From the NCBI GenBank assembly GCA_964526365.1, contig CAZGLB010000001.1:1-39550 (forward strand): a DNA stretch of 39,550 bases. The letters run 5' to 3'. Position 1 is the first letter of the stretch; the number at the start of each line of letters is the position of its first letter. The stretch is from an uncultured archaeon. Its GTDB lineage: Archaea; Iainarchaeota; Iainarchaeia; Iainarchaeales; CSSED10-239. The translations under genes were made by a program, and so were the position numbers. The notes under the pieces were generated by a model. That model worked only from the letters and a program-made list of their open reading frames with translations. It made no database searches and had not been told where the DNA came from. Below, piece after piece: positions 2,968 through 36,750 of this stretch.

Positions 2968-3981
2968 TTAGTCTTTATCAAACAATTGATTTATGGATTT
3001 TTTAAAATGTATATTAAAAATTGCTTTTGCAAAATAATCACTTATTGGAATAATTTCTAACCAGGGGTGCTTTTCTACAAAATCTTTTTCAATATATGCT
3101 GCATCTGTTGCTAGAATTTTTTCCAAAAGACCAGCAGCGTATAGCTCGTCCATTTTTTCAACTGCGCTGCCGTTTAACAGGCAAAGAGAGCAGGCAAAAT
3201 AAACTTTATTTGCGCCCTTTTCTTTTAACACTTTTATTGCGTTATAGACTGTTCCACCAGTATCTAAAATATCATCAATTAAGAAAATATTCTTGTCTTT
3301 GACTTTACCTATTACTTCCATAGTCTCTACTTGATTAATCTTTGAATAATCTCTTTCTTTATAGATTGTAATTGCACCAACGCCTAATTTTGAAGCAAGA
3401 ACTGTTGCTCTTTTCATGCCCCCAACATCTGGAGAAGAAATCAAAAGATTATCTAGAGGAATATTTTCAATAATATATTTCTTTATTGCTTTTCTTGCAT
3501 AAAGATTTTCAAGAATTGCATATTTAAAAAAACCAGCAATTGCTGGATTATGAATATCTAGAGAAAGCACGGTTTTTGCACCAGCTAATTCCATTTCTCT
3601 TGCCACAAGCCTTGCTGTTAGACACTCTCTGCCCCAGATCTTGTCTTGGCGAGCATATGGAAAAACAGGAACTATCACCGTAATATTTTTAGCACTTGCA
3701 ACTCTTGAAGCATCAATTAAAGTAGTTAAAGCACGAAGATTGTCATCAACAGACATTGCATAGCTGTTGTTTGAAACATCTTGAACTATAAAAACATCGC
3801 AGCCCCTTATTGACTCTAGAATATTTGATTTTATTTCTGTGTTTGCAAATCTAATTTCTTGAACAGGAATCAAAGATATGGGTTCTTCATTAATTTCTGC
3901 TAACTGTTCATTTAAATATTTTAAAATTTGGTTTGCAAAATGCTCTCCTGACCTGCAAGAAAGAAGTTTTATGTCGTGCAT
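2968..3981 (-). CDS. prs: ribose-phosphate pyrophosphokinase (PRPP synthetase)
   Basis: PRPP-binding loop FLIDDILDTGGT, SLDIHNPAIAGFF, and the ARQDK flexible-loop motif. Confidence 0.9.
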   Translation of the reverse strand: MHDIKLLSCRSGEHFANQILKYLNEQLAEINEEPISLIPVQEIRFANTEIKSNILESIRGCDVFIVQDVSNNSYAMSVDDNLRALTTLIDASRVASAKNITVIVPVFPYARQDKIWGRECLTARLVAREMELAGAKTVLSLDIHNPAIAGFFKYAILENLYARKAIKKYIIENIPLDNLLISSPDVGGMKRATVLASKLGVGAITIYKERDYSKINQVETMEVIGKVKDKNIFLIDDILDTGGTVYNAIKVLKEKGANKVYFACSLCLLNGSAVEKMDELYAAGLLEKILATDAAYIEKDFVEKHPWLEIIPISDYFAKAIFNIHFKKSINQLFDKD

Positions 3982-3990
3982 GTTTTATCG

Positions 3991-5361
3991 CTAGCCAGTA
4001 ATTACAACTTTTGGTTTTAAACTAAAGGCCTTTTTACAAAGCCCTGCATCTACAATTGAATTCACAACCTCTTTAGAAGACTTATAAGCCCCTGGCTGCT
4101 CTTCTCTTAAAACATTTTCAGAATGACAAGAAAGATAAATGCCTTTTTTTAAAAGCTCTTCTTTTAGACCACTAGCAGAAACCTTTGACTTTGCTTCGGT
4201 TCTTGAAAGAACTCTGCCACAGCCGTGAGGAAGAGTTGAAAAAGTAACTTTGCGCATTTTTGTTTTTGGTAACACCACATAGCTATCATCAAGCATAGAC
4301 CCTGGAAGAATCACAGGCGTTCCAGTCTCTAAAAACTCAGAGCGCTCGGAAAGCCTTTCTGAGATTATGCCCCTAACCGCGCCTTTTCTTGTCACAAGAA
4401 ACCTTTTCTTATCTCGAGTTTCTAACTTTGCAAAATTGTGAGAGCAGTCGTAAAGAAGACGGGAGTTGATGTCGTCTTGTCCAAGATTTAGCGTGTTTTT
4501 TAAAGTTTCAATCACTCTGTCTGCAAGAACTGCTCTATTGACAAAGGCGTAATTGGATGCAGCGCACATGCTTTTATAATAATGCTGCCCAAGCTTTGTA
4601 TTAAAATATAAATATTCAAAAGGATCTTTATTTGTACATTTTTTTGTAAACTCTTCAGCAACAGCATAGCCTAGTCCTCGAGAACCGGTATGAATCATAA
4701 TCATAATCTGATCTTTTTCAATCTTATGCCTTTTACAAAATTGTTTATCAAATAATTTATCCACAATTAAAAGATCAATAAAATGATTGCCTTGCCCTAG
4801 CGTTCCAAGCTGCTTTAAACCTTTTTCAATTGCTGTTTTTGAAAGATATTTTGGACTTGCGTCATTAAAACAGCCAGAATTATAAACATAAAGCTTATCA
4901 AATTTATCAGCATAGCTGTTCTTTACAGCCCACTCTAAGCCTTCATAACAAATCGCTAACAGATCTTGCTTTGTAATCTTTATTCCGTCATTTGATAATC
5001 CAATTGGCAATTTTTCAAAAGCTTTAAGAATATCTTTGTATTGCTTGTCTGTTAGATTTTTAGATTTTAGATTCGTTCTAATCAAGCGAATTCCGCAATT
5101 GATGTCTGTACCAATTGCTTTTGGACTAATTACCGGGTCAGCATCTAAATCAACAGCAAAAGCAGAACCAATTGGAACTCCGCTTCCTACATGAAGATCT
5201 GGAAAGCCATAAACATAACCATAGATTCCTGGAAGTTTTGAAATAGAATAAAGCTGTGTAATTGAAAATTTATTCAGTTTAGAAAATAGAGTTTTATTAG
5301 AAATAATTTTTATTTTATTTTTTTCATCAATAAAAATGTTTTTTTGGGTGTTTTTTAGCAT
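3991..5361 (-). CDS. rtcB: RNA-splicing ligase RtcB
   Basis: Motifs GTDINCGIRL, QGNHF, HTGSRGLGY and CSHNF, with a C-terminal ...VVITG typical of RtcB. No intein. Confidence 0.92.
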   Translation of the reverse strand: MLKNTQKNIFIDEKNKIKIISNKTLFSKLNKFSITQLYSISKLPGIYGYVYGFPDLHVGSGVPIGSAFAVDLDADPVISPKAIGTDINCGIRLIRTNLKSKNLTDKQYKDILKAFEKLPIGLSNDGIKITKQDLLAICYEGLEWAVKNSYADKFDKLYVYNSGCFNDASPKYLSKTAIEKGLKQLGTLGQGNHFIDLLIVDKLFDKQFCKRHKIEKDQIMIMIHTGSRGLGYAVAEEFTKKCTNKDPFEYLYFNTKLGQHYYKSMCAASNYAFVNRAVLADRVIETLKNTLNLGQDDINSRLLYDCSHNFAKLETRDKKRFLVTRKGAVRGIISERLSERSEFLETGTPVILPGSMLDDSYVVLPKTKMRKVTFSTLPHGCGRVLSRTEAKSKVSASGLKEELLKKGIYLSCHSENVLREEQPGAYKSSKEVVNSIVDAGLCKKAFSLKPKVVITG

Positions 5362-5446
5362 ATTAATTGCAAAATTTGAATTTTAAAAAAACTAAAGATA
5401 AATATACTTTGCAAGTTTACTAAATTATGATGCTAACAAATTGGGT

Positions 5447-5755
5447 TTAGTTCTTTAATTCTATTCCAATTTGTAGATCTGCAGGTACATCGACTCTCAT
5501 TATTCTTCTAAGAATCTTGTCGTCTGCTTTAATATCAATTATTCTCTTATGGATTCGTAATTGATATTTCTCATAGGTTTCTGTTCCACCAGCAGAGACT
5601 CCTCTTCTTACTGGAACAACCAATTTTTTGGTCTTTAAAGGGATTATTCCTGTGTGCTTTACTCCACTTTTTGAGGCCACATCTAAAATTTCCTTGCAAA
5701 ATTCTGTAACTTTCTTGTAATCAGTTCCTGTTACTATTACTCTTGCTGTTTGCAT
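5447..5755 (-). CDS. rps10: 30S ribosomal protein S10 (uS10)
   Basis: 102 aa with ARV...TG and LRIHKRIIDI motifs. Lies immediately downstream of EF-1alpha, as in the conserved archaeal tuf-rps10 pair. Confidence 0.92.
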   Translation of the reverse strand: MQTARVIVTGTDYKKVTEFCKEILDVASKSGVKHTGIIPLKTKKLVVPVRRGVSAGGTETYEKYQLRIHKRIIDIKADDKILRRIMRVDVPADLQIGIELKN

Positions 5756-5798
5756 GTTTTTATCACTTTTAAAAAAAATTAAAGAAAAAAAGCAAAAT

Positions 5799-7055
5799 TT
5801 ATGCTCTCTTCTTTATCTCCTGTATAACTCCTGCAGCTACGGTTTTACCCATATCTCTTATAGCAAATCTACCAAGCTGTGGAAAGTCCTTGTATGTTTC
5901 ACACGCAAGTGGCTGTGTTGGTTTTATTCTTACAATTGCAGCATCTCCTGTTTTTAAGAACTTTGGTGCGTCCTCTGGAGTTGGTGCAATCTTCTTGATC
6001 AATTCTACAATTGAACAAGACATTTGTGCTGTGTGTATGTGAAATACTGGAGTGTAACCTGCAGTAATTGCTGTAGGGTGATTTAACACAATTATTTGAG
6101 CAGTAAACTCTTCAGCTACTGTTGGTGGGTTATTCTCTGGTCCAACAACAGAACCTCTTTTAATTGCGCCTTTATCAACATTTTTAATATTGAAACCAAT
6201 GTTATCTCCAGGTAATGCCTCTGGTAATTGTTCGTGATGTGCTTCAACAGTTTTAATTTGTGTTGCGATGTTTTCTGGCATTATGATAACTTTATCGTTT
6301 GGTCTAAGTATTCCGGTTTCAACTCTACCTACTGGAACCATACCAACGCCTTTTATAGAATAAACGTCTTGTATTGGAAGTCTTAGTGGCTTACCGGTCA
6401 ATCCTTCAGGAGCCTTAAAATTATTCATTGCTTCAAATAAGCTTGGACCTTTGTACCAAGGCGTTTTGTCTGAAGGCTTTGTAATGTTTTCTCCGTTCCA
6501 TGAAGATATTGGAATAACTACGTATTGGTCTTCTTTAAATTTTCCTTTAAATAATGCAACAACGTCTGCTTTAACTTTATTAAAGCCTTCTTCGCTATAG
6601 TTTAATTCATCCATTTTATTGATTGCAACAACTATTTGTTTAATACCCATAACTTGAGCAAGGAATGCGTGCTCTTTTGTTTGAGACATTACTCCATCTT
6701 TTGCTGCAACAACTAAAACTGCACCATCTGATTGAGCAGTTCCTGTAATCATGTTTTTAACATAGTCTTGGTGGCCAGGAGCATCAATTACTGTAAAACT
6801 ATATTTATCTGAATCTAGTTTCTTATAGTTAACATCAATTGTAATACCTCTGTCTCTTTCTTCTTTAGTTACATCCATCATGTATGCGAAAGCAAAGGTT
6901 CCTTTTCCTTTTTCTTCGGCCATTGCCTGTAACTTTCTATAATCTTGTTCACTTAAGTTTTTTGTGTCGTACATTAAACGACCAACAGTTGTTGATTTAC
7001 CGTGATCAATGTGACCAATAAAAACAACGTTTATTTTTGGTTTTGGTGCTGCCAT
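5799..7055 (-). CDS. tuf: translation elongation factor 1-alpha
   Basis: GTPase motifs GHIDHGKST, DAPGH and NKMD. A strong GGAGGA lies 7 nt upstream of the ATG. Confidence 0.95.
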   Translation of the reverse strand: MAAPKPKINVVFIGHIDHGKSTTVGRLMYDTKNLSEQDYRKLQAMAEEKGKGTFAFAYMMDVTKEERDRGITIDVNYKKLDSDKYSFTVIDAPGHQDYVKNMITGTAQSDGAVLVVAAKDGVMSQTKEHAFLAQVMGIKQIVVAINKMDELNYSEEGFNKVKADVVALFKGKFKEDQYVVIPISSWNGENITKPSDKTPWYKGPSLFEAMNNFKAPEGLTGKPLRLPIQDVYSIKGVGMVPVGRVETGILRPNDKVIIMPENIATQIKTVEAHHEQLPEALPGDNIGFNIKNVDKGAIKRGSVVGPENNPPTVAEEFTAQIIVLNHPTAITAGYTPVFHIHTAQMSCSIVELIKKIAPTPEDAPKFLKTGDAAIVRIKPTQPLACETYKDFPQLGRFAIRDMGKTVAAGVIQEIKKRA

Positions 7056-33706: not shown

Positions 33707-34375
33707 ATGGAACTAAGGATTGGTGCTTTTGAAAAACTCAGCACAATTGATTATCCAAACAAAGTTTCGTGTGTAATATTTTTTAAAGGCTGTAATTTTT
33801 GTTGTGGTTTTTGCTATAATAAACAATTAGTTATGCCAGAATTCTTTGATAAGAAAGACGACGTATTAGAAAGCGAAATACGGTATTTCTTGGACAGGCG
33901 AAAAGGGCTCTTAGAAGCAGTTGTTTTAAGCGGCGGAGAACCTACAATTTACGACGAAGAGTTAATTGATTTTATAAAAAAGATAAGAGAAAAAGGATAT
34001 TTAGTAAAACTAGACACCAATGGTTCTTGTCCTGAAGTTCTAGAAAAAATAATCTCCAAAAATCTAGTAGACTATATAGCAATGGATCTAAAAGATGAGT
34101 TTGAAAATTATTCGAACTACACAAATGTTCCAGTAGAAAAAATAAAAAAATCTTTTGAATTAGTAAAAAGCACAAAAATTCCTCACGAGTTTAGAATAAC
34201 CACGCATCCAGACCTTGATATTAAATCTTTTAATAAAATAATAGAAGAGACAAAAGGTCAACAGGTGTTTGTCCAGGATTTCATGAATAAAAACACTATT
34301 AAAGCATATAAAAGTTATAAAACAATATATGACAAACTACAACAGAAAGATTTGCGTTATATTTTAAGAGATTAA
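33707..34375 (+). CDS. nrdG: anaerobic ribonucleotide reductase activating protein (radical SAM)
   Basis: CNFCCGFCYN contains the CxxxCxxC cluster motif. VLSGGEPT is the SAM-binding motif. The size (222 aa) and position after nrdD also fit. Confidence 0.85.
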   Translation: MELRIGAFEKLSTIDYPNKVSCVIFFKGCNFCCGFCYNKQLVMPEFFDKKDDVLESEIRYFLDRRKGLLEAVVLSGGEPTIYDEELIDFIKKIREKGYLVKLDTNGSCPEVLEKIISKNLVDYIAMDLKDEFENYSNYTNVPVEKIKKSFELVKSTKIPHEFRITTHPDLDIKSFNKIIEETKGQQVFVQDFMNKNTIKAYKSYKTIYDKLQQKDLRYILRD

Positions 34376-34389
34376 AAACGGTAGAAAAT

Positions 34390-36441
34390 ATGGTTTTTGT
34401 TACAACGATCACACAAAAGAACGGAGAACCAGAAGAGTTCTCAAAAGAAAAAACAGCAATATTGCTATTTGAGATAATGTGTAATATCGGCGAACCAAAT
34501 CTTACTTTAGCAGAGAAATTAGCCTTTCTGATTTTTGATAAAGTTAATGCAAAATTCTCAAAAGAAATACCTGCAGAGAAACTAGAAGAAATAATAAAAG
34601 ATATTTTATTACAAGAAAATCAAACAGACTTGCTTCAGGCCTTTATTCTAAGAAAGAACAAACCCACAGCAACGCAAGCAGATAGCGAATTAAAAGACAA
34701 AATTCTAAAAGGGATATTAAATCTTGAAGACTCAGAGAATGTTTCTGCAAAATTAATATTTATTAATTCTCAAATAAACAAGTTACAGAACAATTCCTTT
34801 GAAAAACTAAATAAGAAGATATTTGAGCATATAAGAGAAGGAACGTTCTATCCAAGTTCTACTCTTTTAAGAGAAATTGCTTTAAACCAGCATATCTCGT
34901 CAAGCTATTGCTTTGAATTAGAAGATAATCTAGAAAGCATATTTGATACCTTGGCGCTAGCAAGCAAAGTTCAAAAATACGGTGCATCTATTTCCTTAGA
35001 TTTAAGTAAAGTCAGATCAGAAAAAGAAAAAGTAAAATCCATAAACCGAAATGCCTGTGGGCCAGTACGAATAATTAATCTTTTTGTTTCTGCTAAGTCT
35101 CTTGTTGGCTATAGTCTAAATAACGCAAATAATTTATTTTATATTTCTATAGAACATCCAGACATCGTTTCGTTTCTAAAATATTCAACAAGTAACCCTC
35201 AAGACAATTTTGCTATACTTGTGCCTGATAGATTTATGATGGCTTTAGAAAAAAATCAAGATTATAATTTAGAAATTGAAGATAAGGTGACAAGAAAGAT
35301 ACAGCCAAGCACCTTGTTTGATTTAATTTCGTCTAGAATCGTTACTGGCGAGAACATAAATTTGATTTTTTCTGATTCCATAAACAAGAAAAATCCGTTT
35401 ACTAATAATTATAAAAAATATCTATTATCTTCGATTGGCTTTCAACCATGCTTTGAAGACAGCACTTTTGTTAATGGTGTAATTGATGTTTCAAAGCTTG
35501 TTAATGTTGTAGGAAACACAAAAGTATTTGATTGGGCAAGACTAAAAACCATAATTTGGGATTCTTTAGAGTTTTTAGATAACTCTATTGATCTTTCTGC
35601 ACAGGTTAATGAAGAATATTCAAAAAATCTAAAAGAGACAAGGCAAGTTTATCTTTCGATAACTGGATTTGCAACTCTTCTTTTTAAACTAAATATTTCT
35701 TATGATAGTGATGATGCGATTTATTTTGCTGATTCCTTGTCTGATTATATTTCCTACTATACAAAATTAAGATCCACAGAGCTTGCTAAAGATCGCGGGC
35801 CATTTCTAAAATTTATAAAAAGCAAATACGAACTACCAAATTTCAATTTTGAGAAAACCGGAATTCAAAGAACTTTATTTTCCACAGATCTTACGCAATC
35901 TAAAAAACTAAATAAGAATATGCCAATGATTGATTGGACAGATTTAAGAAACAATATTAAGAAATACGGGTTAAGGAACTCAACGGCCTTTACAATTTCT
36001 TTTGCTGATTTTTATTCTGTAGCAAATGAATGTACTAATGGCATAGAGCCGTTATTAAGCTATAAGCCAATATATTGGATAAGCGGCTATAAATCAGAAA
36101 AGCTAAATAAAGATTTATTATTACAAGCACCAGACCTTAATTCTAACTGGACAGAACAAGAAATTGAAGAGGCCTTGCCTGATAATTTAAAAGTCAAATT
36201 TAAATTAGCAAAAGAGATTTCACCAAAGCATTTCTTAAGATTGCAATCAATCTTTGAAAGAAACACAGATGGCGTAGTAAATACAAAGATTTATTTTACA
36301 GAAAACACTACACTTTCAGAAATTAAAGACTTGATACGCGAAAGTCACAGGATTGGAAACACATGCTTCTTACCAGAGAAATTAAATCACAAAGCAAAAG
36401 AGTTTAATTCTGAAGAAAGAAAAAGTATAATGAGTTTATAA
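34390..36441 (+). CDS. divergent ribonucleotide reductase alpha-chain paralogue (class II-like)
   Basis: ATP-cone-like N-terminus. YPSSTLL...SYCFELEDNLESIF, GASISLDLSKVRSE....ACGPV....IEHPDIVSFLKY, GFQPCFE (in place of NPCGE) and TNGIEPLLS follow the RNR ten-stranded barrel motif order. Several catalytic positions are changed. Confidence 0.65.
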   Translation: MVFVTTITQKNGEPEEFSKEKTAILLFEIMCNIGEPNLTLAEKLAFLIFDKVNAKFSKEIPAEKLEEIIKDILLQENQTDLLQAFILRKNKPTATQADSELKDKILKGILNLEDSENVSAKLIFINSQINKLQNNSFEKLNKKIFEHIREGTFYPSSTLLREIALNQHISSSYCFELEDNLESIFDTLALASKVQKYGASISLDLSKVRSEKEKVKSINRNACGPVRIINLFVSAKSLVGYSLNNANNLFYISIEHPDIVSFLKYSTSNPQDNFAILVPDRFMMALEKNQDYNLEIEDKVTRKIQPSTLFDLISSRIVTGENINLIFSDSINKKNPFTNNYKKYLLSSIGFQPCFEDSTFVNGVIDVSKLVNVVGNTKVFDWARLKTIIWDSLEFLDNSIDLSAQVNEEYSKNLKETRQVYLSITGFATLLFKLNISYDSDDAIYFADSLSDYISYYTKLRSTELAKDRGPFLKFIKSKYELPNFNFEKTGIQRTLFSTDLTQSKKLNKNMPMIDWTDLRNNIKKYGLRNSTAFTISFADFYSVANECTNGIEPLLSYKPIYWISGYKSEKLNKDLLLQAPDLNSNWTEQEIEEALPDNLKVKFKLAKEISPKHFLRLQSIFERNTDGVVNTKIYFTENTTLSEIKDLIRESHRIGNTCFLPEKLNHKAKEFNSEERKSIMSL

Positions 36442-36462: not shown

Positions 36463-36750
36463 ATGGATAAAATAATTGCATCAGAAACCACTGACGAAAA
36501 AATAAAAAGAATAAGGCCGTTCTTTGAGCAATTGACTTTCTTTTTTCTGTTTTTAATATTGTTTATAATTTACGACACAACAATTCACACAATCCCAATA
36601 ATCAAATACACAGTTACTGTCTTTTTCATGGGCTGGTCAATCTCTTTAATTATTCAAGAGTTGTATGTGTACAAAGTATTTAAACCAATAATTCTAGGAA
36701 AGAGATGGGAAACTTTTGTAAAAAATAGTACAAAAAGTAAAAATAAATGA
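36463..36750 (+). CDS. small two-TM membrane protein, unknown function
   Basis: 95 aa with two hydrophobic helices (LTFFFLFLILFIIY, VTVFFMGWSISLII). Last gene of the co-oriented nrd cluster. Confidence 0.4.
   Translation: MDKIIASETTDEKIKRIRPFFEQLTFFFLFLILFIIYDTTIHTIPIIKYTVTVFFMGWSISLIIQELYVYKVFKPIILGKRWETFVKNSTKSKNK

What the first reader, a model, noticed from the sequence alone, without database searches (positions are those of the whole stretch)
34390..36441. Divergent class I/II-type RNR alpha paralogue with altered active-site residues, co-oriented downstream of nrdD-nrdG
The ORF follows the motif order of aerobic or B12-type RNR large subunits: an ATP-cone-like start, SYCFELEDNLESIF, GASISLDLSKVRSE, ACGPV, IEHPDIVSFLKY, and GIEP. 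Several key positions differ from the consensus in my by-eye alignment. The N-x-C-x-E catalytic string reads QPCFE (Asn to Gln, Gly to Phe). The segment where the second redox Cys is expected (CNLGSI in class II enzymes) reads FVNGVIDV, with no Cys. RRGA reads NNAN. APTG reads SFAD. There is no C-terminal Cys pair. It sits 15 nt after nrdG in the same orientation, so it is probably co-transcribed with an oxygen-sensitive class III system. It could be an unusual reductase using a different reductant, a pseudoenzyme with a regulatory or scaffolding role, or a partner for the split NrdD.
Basis: partly seen in the sequence, partly recalled or inferred. Interest (0 to 1): 0.6.

Follow-up and report, generated by a model that had tools for sequence, protein, structure and literature searches.

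The report
Dead B12-type reductase beside nrdDG
This archaeal gene is a full-length copy of a vitamin-B12-type ribonucleotide reductase that has lost every residue needed for its chemistry, yet selection keeps it directly behind the working anaerobic reductase genes, so it must do a different, probably nucleotide-binding, job.

Summary
The ORF at 34390..36441 (683 aa) is real and has the class II (NrdJ) ribonucleotide reductase fold with an ATP-cone-like N-terminus. The NPCGE finger loop corresponds to S347-S-I-G-F351, not to QPCFE. Asn, the thiyl-radical Cys and Glu are therefore all gone. Both redox Cys, the phosphate-binding APTG loop, loop 2, SKT and the C-terminal Cys tail are gone too.

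It is not decaying. About 25 intact relatives (44-100% identity) exist, and dN/dS is 0.07 for the least saturated pair, as low as for neighbouring nrdG.

In its GTDB family, 11 of 12 genomes of two genera carry nrdD, a 48-aa glycyl-radical gene, nrdG and this dead gene together. None has a live NrdJ or a CobA adenosyltransferase. The three sister genera carry live nrdJ plus cobA in the same chromosomal slot and no nrdD.

The effector-site residues (D179, K196, R209), the dimer helices and the ATP-cone are among the best conserved parts. Best reading: a selected pseudoenzyme, probably a nucleotide-binding accessory of the class III system. Its function is untested.

This scan has already reported the same family in at least eight other genomes. 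I found no paper describing it.

The parts
34390..36441 (+). Catalytically dead class II RNR-alpha homologue ('RNR-X'), 683 aa
   Evidence: ORF. PF02867 194 bits. TIGR02504 NrdJ 212 bits against a cutoff of 400. AF2 model with pLDDT 86.4; best PDB fold match is T. maritima NrdJ, E 1e-35.
34405..34662 (+). ATP-cone-like N-terminal domain (residues 6-91)
   Evidence: PF03477 25.1 bits, just under the gathering score of 25.8. The AF2 model shows a beta-hairpin plus four helices. The canonical K-R-D of the hairpin is replaced by N/K/N, while Y85 and a basic residue at 89 are kept. 24% of columns are invariant within the family.
34900..35109 (+). alphaA - loop 1 - alphaB region (residues 171-240): dimer helices and specificity (effector) site. 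It contains S172 at the position of redox Cys1.
   Evidence: D179, I184, F185, R209, G224 and P225 are invariant across the family and canonical NrdJs, and K196 is invariant in the family. They align with T. maritima D141, K158 and R171. Mean family identity is 0.71.
35110..35139 (+). Degenerate loop 2 (YSLNNANNLF in place of K-Q-G-x-R-R-G-A-N-M)
   Evidence: The AF2 model has pLDDT below 50 at residues 242-245.
35428..35442 (+). Former finger loop: S-S-I-G-F in place of N-P-C-G-E
   Evidence: Three concordant alignments. Coordinates were checked by translation.
35443..35457 (+).
   Evidence: Cys354 is not conserved in the family.
35467..35469 (+). F360 at the position of redox Cys2 (canonical E-S-C-N-L-G)
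   Evidence: canonical C in 100%, family F in 96%.
35830..35973 (+). Most conserved family segment (residues 481-528). The model is partly low-confidence here. The segment ends in the class I / long-NrdJ-like motif DW..L...IKKYGLRN.
   Evidence: Mean family identity 0.76 with 33% invariant columns. pLDDT is 53 at residues 491-500. The segment is absent from short ATP-cone NrdJs. It aligns with A. aeolicus class Ia R1.
35995..36009 (+). I-S-F-A-D in place of the substrate-phosphate loop I-A-P-T-G
30497..33490 (+). nrdD large part (class III RNR with an ATP-cone and an intein), first gene of the cluster
   Evidence: PF13597 563 bits, NF006126 961 bits, ATP-cone 52 bits.
33542..33688 (+). 48-aa gene carrying the glycyl-radical motif (SRVVGF) of NrdD
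   Evidence: A 47-48-aa ORF with PF13597 sits in the same place in relatives.
33707..34375 (+). nrdG activase (radical SAM)
   Evidence: TIGR02495 178 bits against a cutoff of 131.
36463..36750 (+). 95-aa 2TM-domain protein, last co-oriented gene. It is conserved in the same genus but not in the second genus.
   Evidence: PF13239 23.6 bits, which is below the gathering score. Present in L002 and L006, absent in L003.

Best explanation
The gene encodes a non-catalytic descendant of an adenosylcobalamin-dependent class II ribonucleotide reductase (NrdJ with an ATP-cone). It keeps the ten-stranded barrel fold. It has lost the thiyl-radical Cys, Asn, Glu, both redox Cys, the substrate-phosphate loop, loop 2 and the C-terminal Cys tail, so it cannot reduce nucleotides. 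This part is shown.

Selection maintains it as the fourth gene of an nrdD / nrdD' (glycyl-radical peptide) / nrdG cluster in two genera of small-genome archaea. These genera rely on the class III enzyme and have no B12 adenosyltransferase. This part is also shown.

The best-conserved parts are the alphaA/alphaB dimer helices with the effector-site Asp/Lys/Arg, the ATP-cone and a 48-residue surface segment. From this I infer that the protein still dimerises and binds a nucleotide effector, and that it acts as a nucleotide-sensing or scaffolding accessory for dNTP synthesis by the co-expressed class III RNR.
For: Fold: PF02867 at E 4.5e-57. The best sequence match in the PDB is T. maritima NrdJ. 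The AF2 model has pLDDT 86.4 and pTM 0.81, and its top Foldseek hits are T. maritima NrdJ at E 1e-35 and TM 0.65-0.73.

Dead site: three alignments agree. Only 85 of 253 columns that are at least 90% conserved in 80 canonical ATP-cone NrdJs are kept. All catalytic columns are among those lost, with hydrophobic or aromatic replacements: C to I, E to F/L/Y, C to F, G421 to Y.

Selection: ORFs are intact in all 11 family-level genomes that have the gene. dN/dS is 0.07 for the pair with unsaturated dS (dS 0.80), against 0.105 for nrdG and 0.053 for CDC48.

Linkage: the order nrdD, 48-aa ORF, nrdG, X on the same strand is found in every relative, down to 44% identity.

Phyletic pattern in 22 genomes of the GTDB family:
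- g1 and g66: NrdD in 12 of 12, the dead gene in 11 of 12 (the one miss is at a contig end), CobA in 0 of 12, live NrdJ in 0 of 12.
- g2, g3, g4: NrdD in 0 of 10, live ~870-aa NrdJ in 10 of 10, CobA in 10 of 10.

In closed genome G002, cobA and nrdJ lie between the same Xer recombinase and CDC48 genes, in the same orientation.

Effector site: D179, K196 and R209, equivalent to T. maritima D141, K158 and R171, are invariant. Region 171-240 and the ATP-cone are among the most conserved segments. Independent degenerate NrdJ-like proteins also keep the Asp and Arg while losing catalytic residues.
Against: No binding, oligomerisation or interaction was measured. Assigning D179, K196 and R209 to effector binding rests on alignment to T. 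maritima NrdJ and on textbook knowledge of that structure, not on a test. These residues could also be kept for structural reasons.

The K-R dyad of the ATP-cone that binds the triphosphate in characterised cones (PMC11226230) is not conserved. Loop 2, which couples the effector site to the active site, is degenerate.

The class III NrdD here has its own ATP-cone and presumably its own specificity site, so it has no evident need for an extra sensor. Many order-mates and other organisms run NrdD, including split NrdD, without such a protein.

Co-transcription is inferred only from 14-51-nt gaps.
Confidence: 0.55

Rival explanations
1. It is a structural relic with a moonlighting role unrelated to the class III RNR. 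The ancestral NrdJ had a second, non-catalytic interaction, for example within a replication or dNTP-channelling complex. That interaction forced the protein's retention after NrdD took over catalysis. Adjacency to nrdDG only reflects the fact that nrdDG was inserted next to nrdJ.
For: The gene sits in the same chromosomal slot and orientation as live nrdJ in sister genera. An AU test does not reject a clade of the dead family plus the sister-genus NrdJ (p 0.44). A long stem (2.1-2.8 substitutions per site) with a short crown fits a change of constraint followed by stabilisation. The highly conserved but low-pLDDT segment 485-515 looks like a partner-binding element.
Against: In profile comparison the family is closer to short ATP-cone NrdJs of other families (hhalign score 292) than to the sister-genus NrdJ (147). 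The tight gene spacing, kept down to 44% identity, argues for co-expression with nrdDG.
Confidence: 0.22
2. It is a neofunctionalised enzyme. The barrel has been repurposed for a different, non-radical reaction or for binding a small molecule, using family-specific invariant polar residues.
For: About 100 positions are invariant in the family but differ from, or vary in, canonical NrdJ. They include polar residues near the former active site: S347, D366, Y421, S423, T425, D540, N546 and N550.
Against: The replacements at the catalytic positions are mostly hydrophobic or aromatic (I349, F/L/Y351, F360, Y421), which suggests the pocket is filled rather than rebuilt. There is no match to any other enzyme family and no new cofactor motif. 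The family-specific constraints concentrate in the ATP-cone and in residues 451-540, not in the barrel centre.
Confidence: 0.1
3. It is an active ribonucleotide reductase that uses Cys354 of QPCFE as the radical site together with an unusual external reductant.
For: Cys354 and Glu356 exist in this protein and its four closest relatives.
Against: QPCFE is not the finger-loop motif in any of the three alignments. Cys354 is Val or Ile in most family members. The phosphate-binding loop, loop 2, Asn and the redox pair are missing. No CobA was found in 12 of 12 genomes and no class I beta subunit was seen. The only PF02867 hit in the genome is this gene.
Confidence: 0.02
4. It is a decaying gene: a recently inactivated nrdJ on its way to loss.
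For: Isolated degenerate NrdJ-like singletons of this kind do exist elsewhere. One example is P0056, 40% identical to canonical NrdJ and with no close relatives.
Against: dN/dS is 0.07-0.19. There are no frameshifts or stops in any relative. Length is kept at 679-683 aa in the genus. Divergence within the family reaches 44% identity, so the dead state is old.
Confidence: 0.03

Closest known systems
[quoted passage not shown]
   Same: It has the same overall fold (Foldseek E 1e-35) and the same domain order: ATP-cone, N-helical region, barrel. It keeps the structural motifs HPD, NP, FLDN.ID, RN and Q...F.K..D, and the effector-site Asp/Lys/Arg.
   Different: There is no thiyl Cys, Asn, Glu, redox Cys pair, APTG phosphate loop, RRGA loop 2, SKT or C-terminal Cys tail. 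It scores 212 bits against the 400-bit cutoff of TIGR02504. No adenosyltransferase was found in the host genomes. It lies in a class III operon.
Catalytically inactive R1 homologues of betaherpesviruses (M45 / UL45). From general knowledge; not retrieved here.
   Same: These are RNR large-subunit folds that lost their catalytic residues and were kept for a non-enzymatic role.
   Different: They derive from class Ia R1, occur in animal viruses, and act through added host-interaction motifs. There is no sequence relationship beyond the shared superfamily, and no operon link to a working RNR.
NCBIfam NF005401 (PRK06948) 'ribonucleotide reductase-like protein'
   Same: It is another annotated family of RNR-like proteins outside the equivalog families.
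   Different: The match is only 73 bits against a cutoff of 906, so this protein is not a member.
Other degenerate ATP-cone NrdJ-like proteins in metagenomes (P0055, P0056, P0092, P0155, P0179), and dead NrdJ lineages noted earlier by this scan in Micavibrio-like and Caulobacter-family bacteria
   Same: They have the same parent enzyme class. Their catalytic residues are replaced while the effector-site Asp and Arg are kept.
   Different: They are independent lineages. P0056 is an orphan, 40% identical to live NrdJ and not next to nrdD. They do not share the family's signature S-S/P-I/V-G-x-Q-P or the nrdDG linkage.

Membership tests
Class II RNR (NrdJ, TIGR02504) | Ten-stranded alpha/beta barrel RNR fold | tested here: met
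   PF02867 194 bits. The top Foldseek hits of the AF2 model are T. maritima NrdJ, E 1e-35.
Class II RNR (NrdJ, TIGR02504) | Score above the curated equivalog cutoff | tested here: not met
   211.8 bits against a cutoff of 399.95. All other NrdJ, NrdA and NrdE models are also far below their cutoffs.
Class II RNR (NrdJ, TIGR02504) | Thiyl-radical Cys on the finger loop, flanked by Asn and Glu (N-x-C-x-E) | tested here: not met
   The position reads S347-S-I349-G-F351 in three alignments. The family consensus is S-(S/P)-(I/V)-G-x.
Class II RNR (NrdJ, TIGR02504) | Redox-active Cys pair in the active site | tested here: not met
   Cys1 is replaced by S172 (S, G or T in the family). Cys2 is replaced by F360 (96% F in the family).
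Class II RNR (NrdJ, TIGR02504) | Substrate phosphate-binding loop (A-P-T-G) and the loop 2 specificity relay | tested here: not met
   I-S-F-A-D replaces I-A-P-T-G, and N-N-A-N-N replaces R-R-G-A-N.
Class II RNR (NrdJ, TIGR02504) | C-terminal Cys pair or Zn-finger tail for re-reduction | tested here: not met
   The tail reads ...KEFNSEERKSIMSL with no Cys pair.
Class II RNR (NrdJ, TIGR02504) | AdoCbl cofactor supply and binding; nucleotide reduction | tested here: inconclusive
   CobA/BtuR (PF02572) was not found in G000 (80% complete) nor in any of the 12 g1 and g66 genomes, but it is present in 10 of 10 sister-genus genomes with live NrdJ. Binding and activity cannot be tested with these tools.
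ATP-cone domain (PF03477) | Pfam gathering score and conserved triphosphate-binding basic residues (the K-R of the hairpin, and a basic residue plus an aromatic in the last helix) | tested here: inconclusive
   25.1 bits against a gathering score of 25.8. The fold is predicted. K-R-D is replaced by N/K/N, while Y85 and K89 are kept. The residue roles are taken from PMC11226230.
RNR specificity (effector) site at the alphaA/alphaB dimer interface | Conserved Asp (alphaA N-terminus), Lys (alphaA C-terminus) and Arg (start of loop 1) | tested here: met
   D179, K196 and R209 are invariant in the family and align with T. maritima D141, K158 and R171. The architecture is described in PMC9669993. 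Actual nucleotide binding was not tested.
NCBIfam NF005401 ribonucleotide reductase-like protein | Score above the cutoff | tested here: not met
   73.2 bits against a cutoff of 906.
Anti-phage defence systems (PADLOC) | Match to any defence-protein model | tested here: not met
   No families matched at E up to 0.01 for this protein or for the downstream 2TM protein.

The most novel reading that the evidence does not exclude
The dead class II paralogue is a trans-acting allosteric subunit of the class III reductase. It would be a dimeric dNTP/ATP sensor that docks on NrdD, on its detached glycyl-radical peptide, or on NrdG, and tunes activity or radical installation. This would be the first case of one RNR class being regulated by a pseudoenzyme derived from another class.
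Probability: 0.2. Interest if true: 0.8.

Novelty: new variant of a known kind. Interest (0 to 1): 0.55.

Why it matters
Ribonucleotide reductases are among the best-studied radical enzymes, but prokaryotic RNR-derived pseudoenzymes are not described in the literature I could search.

This family gives a clean natural experiment. Within one archaeal family, some lineages carry live nrdJ plus cobA. Others carry nrdDG plus a dead NrdJ-like gene in the same chromosomal slot. This shows how a switch of RNR class can leave behind a selected, non-catalytic paralogue.

If the protein proves to be a nucleotide sensor or a partner of the class III enzyme, it would add a new layer to RNR regulation. It would also explain why genome-reduced archaea of about 0.7-0.9 Mb spend 2 kb on it.

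For annotation, these genes should not be called ribonucleoside-diphosphate reductase or used as evidence of B12 dependence.

Tried and rejected
1. Reading QPCFE as the N-x-C-x-E motif. Rejected by three alignments and by the non-conservation of Cys354.

2. Decaying pseudogene. Rejected by dN/dS of 0.07-0.19 and by intact ORFs in all relatives.

3. Defence-system component. There are no PADLOC hits.

4. A common origin or shared context with the nearest other degenerate NrdJ-like protein, P0056. It is an orphan, 40% identical to live archaeal NrdJs, and is not next to nrdD. The variant P0025 (S-S-C-A-E) keeps Cys, Glu, APTG and SKT and sits beside cobA, thyA and dcd, so it is probably a working B12 enzyme and not a relative in function.

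5. Acquisition of an nrdDG-nrdJ operon as one block from order-mates. In 151 sampled genomes of the order, class II and class III are nearly mutually exclusive. In the few genomes with both, the genes lie on different contigs.

6. Replacement of a lost NrdR. No NrdR (TIGR00244) was found in any of the 22 genomes of the family, so there is no contrast to explain.

7. Phylogenetic placement. The family nests in class II but sits on a stem of 2.1-2.8 substitutions per site. Its sister group is unresolved, and descent from the sister-genus NrdJ is neither supported nor rejected (AU p 0.44). A CDC48 tree leaves g1, g66 and (g2, g3, g4) as a trichotomy.

8. Promoter and terminator scans gave nothing above chance. 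They do not model archaeal promoters.

10. Model coordinates are not exposed, so spatial clustering of the conserved residues could not be computed. No multimer prediction is available.
Full report
**Observation.** The ORF 34390..36441 (+) is open for 683 codons. It begins 14 nt after the stop of nrdG. The genome is a 0.68-Mb, about 80% complete, roughly 30% GC archaeal MAG. This ORF is its only PF02867 match.

**What it is by sequence and fold.**
- Pfam gives the RNR barrel domain over residues 170-656 (194 bits, E 4.5e-57), and an ATP-cone just under threshold (25.1 against 25.8 bits) at residues 6-91.
- The best NCBIfam model is NrdJ (TIGR02504), but at 212 bits against a 400-bit cutoff. 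Every NrdJ, NrdA and NrdE equivalog is far below its cutoff.
- The best solved relative by sequence is T. maritima NrdJ (E 1.5e-30).
- An AF2 model was built from a 40-sequence alignment. It models the cluster representative P0001, which differs from the window protein only at residue 502. It has pLDDT 86.4 and pTM 0.81, with an ATP-cone-like hairpin plus four helices in front of the barrel.
- Its top Foldseek hits in the PDB are all T. maritima NrdJ entries (E about 1e-35, TM 0.65-0.73), followed by class I R1 proteins.

**Active site.** Three independent alignments agree: phmmer against 1XJE, MAFFT with canonical NrdJs, and hhalign of the family profile against an order-mate's NrdJ. They map the canonical residues as follows.

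| Canonical element | In this protein |
|---|---|
| L-S-A-C-F (redox Cys1) | S-S-S172-Y-C-F; the Cys column is S, G or T in the family, and Cys174 two residues later is not conserved |
| N-P-C-G-E | S347-S-I349-G-F351 |
| E-S-C-N-L-G (redox Cys2) | S-T-F360-V-N-G |
| R-R-G-A-N (loop 2) | N-N-A-N-N |
| I-A-P-T-G (phosphate loop) | I-S-F-A-D |
| S-K-T | N-T-K |
| Cys-rich C-terminal tail | absent |

Its Cys is Val or Ile in most relatives.

I compared the family with 80 canonical ATP-cone NrdJs. Only 85 of the 253 columns that are at least 90% conserved in those enzymes are kept. The kept columns are structural motifs (HPD, NP, FLDN.ID, R418, G426, RN, Q619..F..K..D627) plus D179, I184, F185, R209, A222, G224 and P225. 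The replacements at catalytic positions are hydrophobic or aromatic (I349, F/L/Y351, F360, Y421). I read this as a filled pocket, which is an inference.

**Family and selection.**
- A search of 5.8 billion proteins found 24 clusters of 679-727 aa at 43-100% identity, all from uncultured archaea. The next hits drop to 27% identity or less.
- A profile search of 1.84 billion representatives found only three full-length clusters at the 50% level (P0020, P0024, P0044) plus fragments. All have the dead motif.
- For the only pair whose dS is not saturated (L002/L009, dS 0.80), dN/dS is 0.07. The same pair gives 0.105 for nrdG and 0.053 for CDC48. The other pairs give 0.09-0.32 with saturated dS.
- Within the family, the best-conserved segments are residues 481-528 (0.76 mean identity), 171-240 (alphaA, loop 1, alphaB; 0.71), 369-480 (0.71) and the ATP-cone (0.70). 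The linker, loop 2, residues 561-612 and the tail are the least conserved.

**Context.** In every relative with enough flanking DNA the order is the same: a Xer-type recombinase (-), then nrdD (+), a 47-48-aa PF13597 ORF (+), nrdG (+), the dead gene (+), a 2TM protein in this genus only, then CDC48 (-), topoisomerase (-) and AsnC (-). In the window, the 48-aa ORF (33542..33688) carries the glycyl-radical motif SRVVGF and has its own Shine-Dalgarno sequence. An earlier agent of this scan already followed this up. The gaps between the genes from nrdD through the 2TM gene are 14-51 nt, which suggests co-transcription.

**Phyletic pattern.** The table covers the 22 genomes of the GTDB family.

| Genera | NrdD | Dead gene | Live ~870-aa NrdJ | CobA/BtuR |
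|---|---|---|---|---|
| g1 and g66 | 12 of 12 | 11 of 12, always adjacent to nrdD (the miss, G108, has nrdD at a contig end) | 0 of 12 | 0 of 12 |
| g2, g3, g4 | 0 of 10 | 0 of 10 | 10 of 10 | 10 of 10 |

In the closed genome G002, cobA and nrdJ lie between the same Xer and CDC48 genes and in the same orientation as the dead gene here. In 151 sampled genomes of the order, the full-length family occurs only in genus g1, and class II and class III are almost mutually exclusive by family. Genus g66 was not in that sample. No NrdR was found anywhere in the family.

**Origin.** In trees rooted with class I sequences, the family nests inside class II. Its stem is 2.1-2.8 substitutions per site and its crown is short. 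This pattern fits a burst of change after loss of catalysis, followed by stable constraint.

The sister group is unresolved. Profile comparison favours the short ATP-cone NrdJs of other families in the order (hhalign score 292) over the sister-genus NrdJ (147). Two things point the other way. The family shares the 'W..L...IKKYG.RN' segment with long NrdJs and class I. An AU test does not reject a clade with the sister-genus NrdJ (p 0.44).

A CDC48 tree leaves g1, g66 and (g2, g3, g4) as a trichotomy. The dead gene therefore arose once. Whether it descends in place from the ancestral nrdJ remains open.

**How it most likely works.**
- Shown: it cannot perform radical nucleotide reduction, it is selected, and it is genetically tied to the class III system in lineages that lack an AdoCbl supply.
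- Inferred: it remains a dimer through alphaA and alphaB, and it still binds a nucleotide at the specificity site. The evidence is that D179, K196 and R209 are invariant. The site architecture follows PMC9669993.
- Possibly: it also binds a nucleotide at a modified ATP-cone. The K-R dyad is changed, while Y85 and K89 are kept. The roles of the cone residues follow PMC11226230.

It would then act as a sensor or scaffold for the co-expressed NrdD, NrdD' and NrdG. Independent degenerate NrdJ-like proteins also keep the effector-site Asp and Arg while losing catalytic residues. This is consistent with that site being the part worth keeping.

There is also evidence against this reading. NrdD has its own ATP-cone. 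Many organisms use NrdD, split or not, without such a partner. Loop 2, the normal relay from the effector site, is degenerate.

**Comparison with what is known.** The closest known family is dimeric NrdJ with an ATP-cone. The protein has that fold but fails every catalytic membership criterion. Functionally, the nearest precedent is the inactive R1 homologues of betaherpesviruses. That comparison comes from general knowledge and they are unrelated in origin. Full-text searches found no paper describing prokaryotic RNR pseudoenzymes. The large RNR phylogeny papers do not mention them in the passages I searched.

This scan has, however, already reported the same family in at least eight other genomes, with the same conclusion. 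It has also noted independent dead NrdJ lineages in bacteria. I recorded my own reading before seeing those notes.

**Verdict.** This is a real, conserved, catalytically dead class II RNR paralogue in the class III operon. The function remains an inference.

Noticed in passing
window 33421-33688: NrdD is split. The 997-aa ORF ends after the C-P-K-C half of the Zn site. A separate 48-aa gene with its own Shine-Dalgarno sequence carries the fourth Cys and the glycyl-radical motif (KCEVYSRVVGF). The same 47-48-aa ORF is present in all relatives, and many NrdDs of the order also stop at about profile position 525-531. An earlier agent of this scan (e1-3403120) has already followed this up.
   Followed up: partly
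window 31307-32269 (within nrdD): NrdD carries an intein of about 320 residues (CMSQDTEILTEDG ... VFITGN/T), with a weak TIGR01445 N-terminal splicing match. Some relatives, such as L002 with a 676-aa NrdD, lack it.
   Followed up: no
P0046 (1600 aa) and P0047 (1351 aa), from the representative search: Each of these single polypeptides contains two complete class II RNR modules in tandem. Both modules have N-(P/V)-C-G-E and C-N-L-G motifs, and there is one C-terminal Zn-finger tail. They look like fused double NrdJs.
   Followed up: no
P0025, P0026, P0053, P0072, P0077, P0091, P0142, P0177, P0182; L031 1602-3635: These ATP-cone NrdJ-like proteins have the catalytic Asn replaced by Ser, Asp or Thr. 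Some also lose one or both redox Cys. The thiyl Cys, Glu, APTG and SKT are kept. P0025 lies beside cobA/btuR, thyA, dcd and a 5'-nucleotidase next to a Bro-N gene, so it is probably a functional B12 enzyme with an unusual active site.
   Followed up: partly
P0055, P0056, P0092, P0101, P0155, P0179: These are further independent, mostly singleton, ATP-cone NrdJ-like proteins with degenerate finger loops and phosphate loops. P0056 is 40% identical to live archaeal NrdJs and is not next to nrdD (L033).
   Followed up: partly
L029 (G148:C3) 3923-6281, minus strand: A second class II RNR lies in a same-genus genome, on a contig with cysteine-rich orphan genes. The reading frame breaks exactly inside N-P-(C-G-E), giving ORFs of 237 and 483 aa. 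This could be an intron, an intein, a frameshift, or a foreign or viral contig.
   Followed up: no
L022 620-1063: An NrdR-like gene (Zn ribbon plus ATP-cone, 147 aa) lies directly upstream of, and overlaps, a live ATP-cone nrdJ in another family of this archaeal order. NrdR is usually regarded as bacterial. TIGR00244 found none in the window's own family.
   Followed up: partly
order-level census: Across 151 small archaeal genomes of the order, families use either class III (for example f20 16/16, f27 12/13, f2 9/9) or class II (f30 15/15), and almost never both.
   Followed up: partly
window 36463-36750: A 95-aa protein with a sub-threshold 2TM-domain match and a strong Shine-Dalgarno sequence follows the dead RNR gene by 21 nt. 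It is conserved, and sometimes duplicated, in the same genus but absent in the second genus.
   Followed up: no
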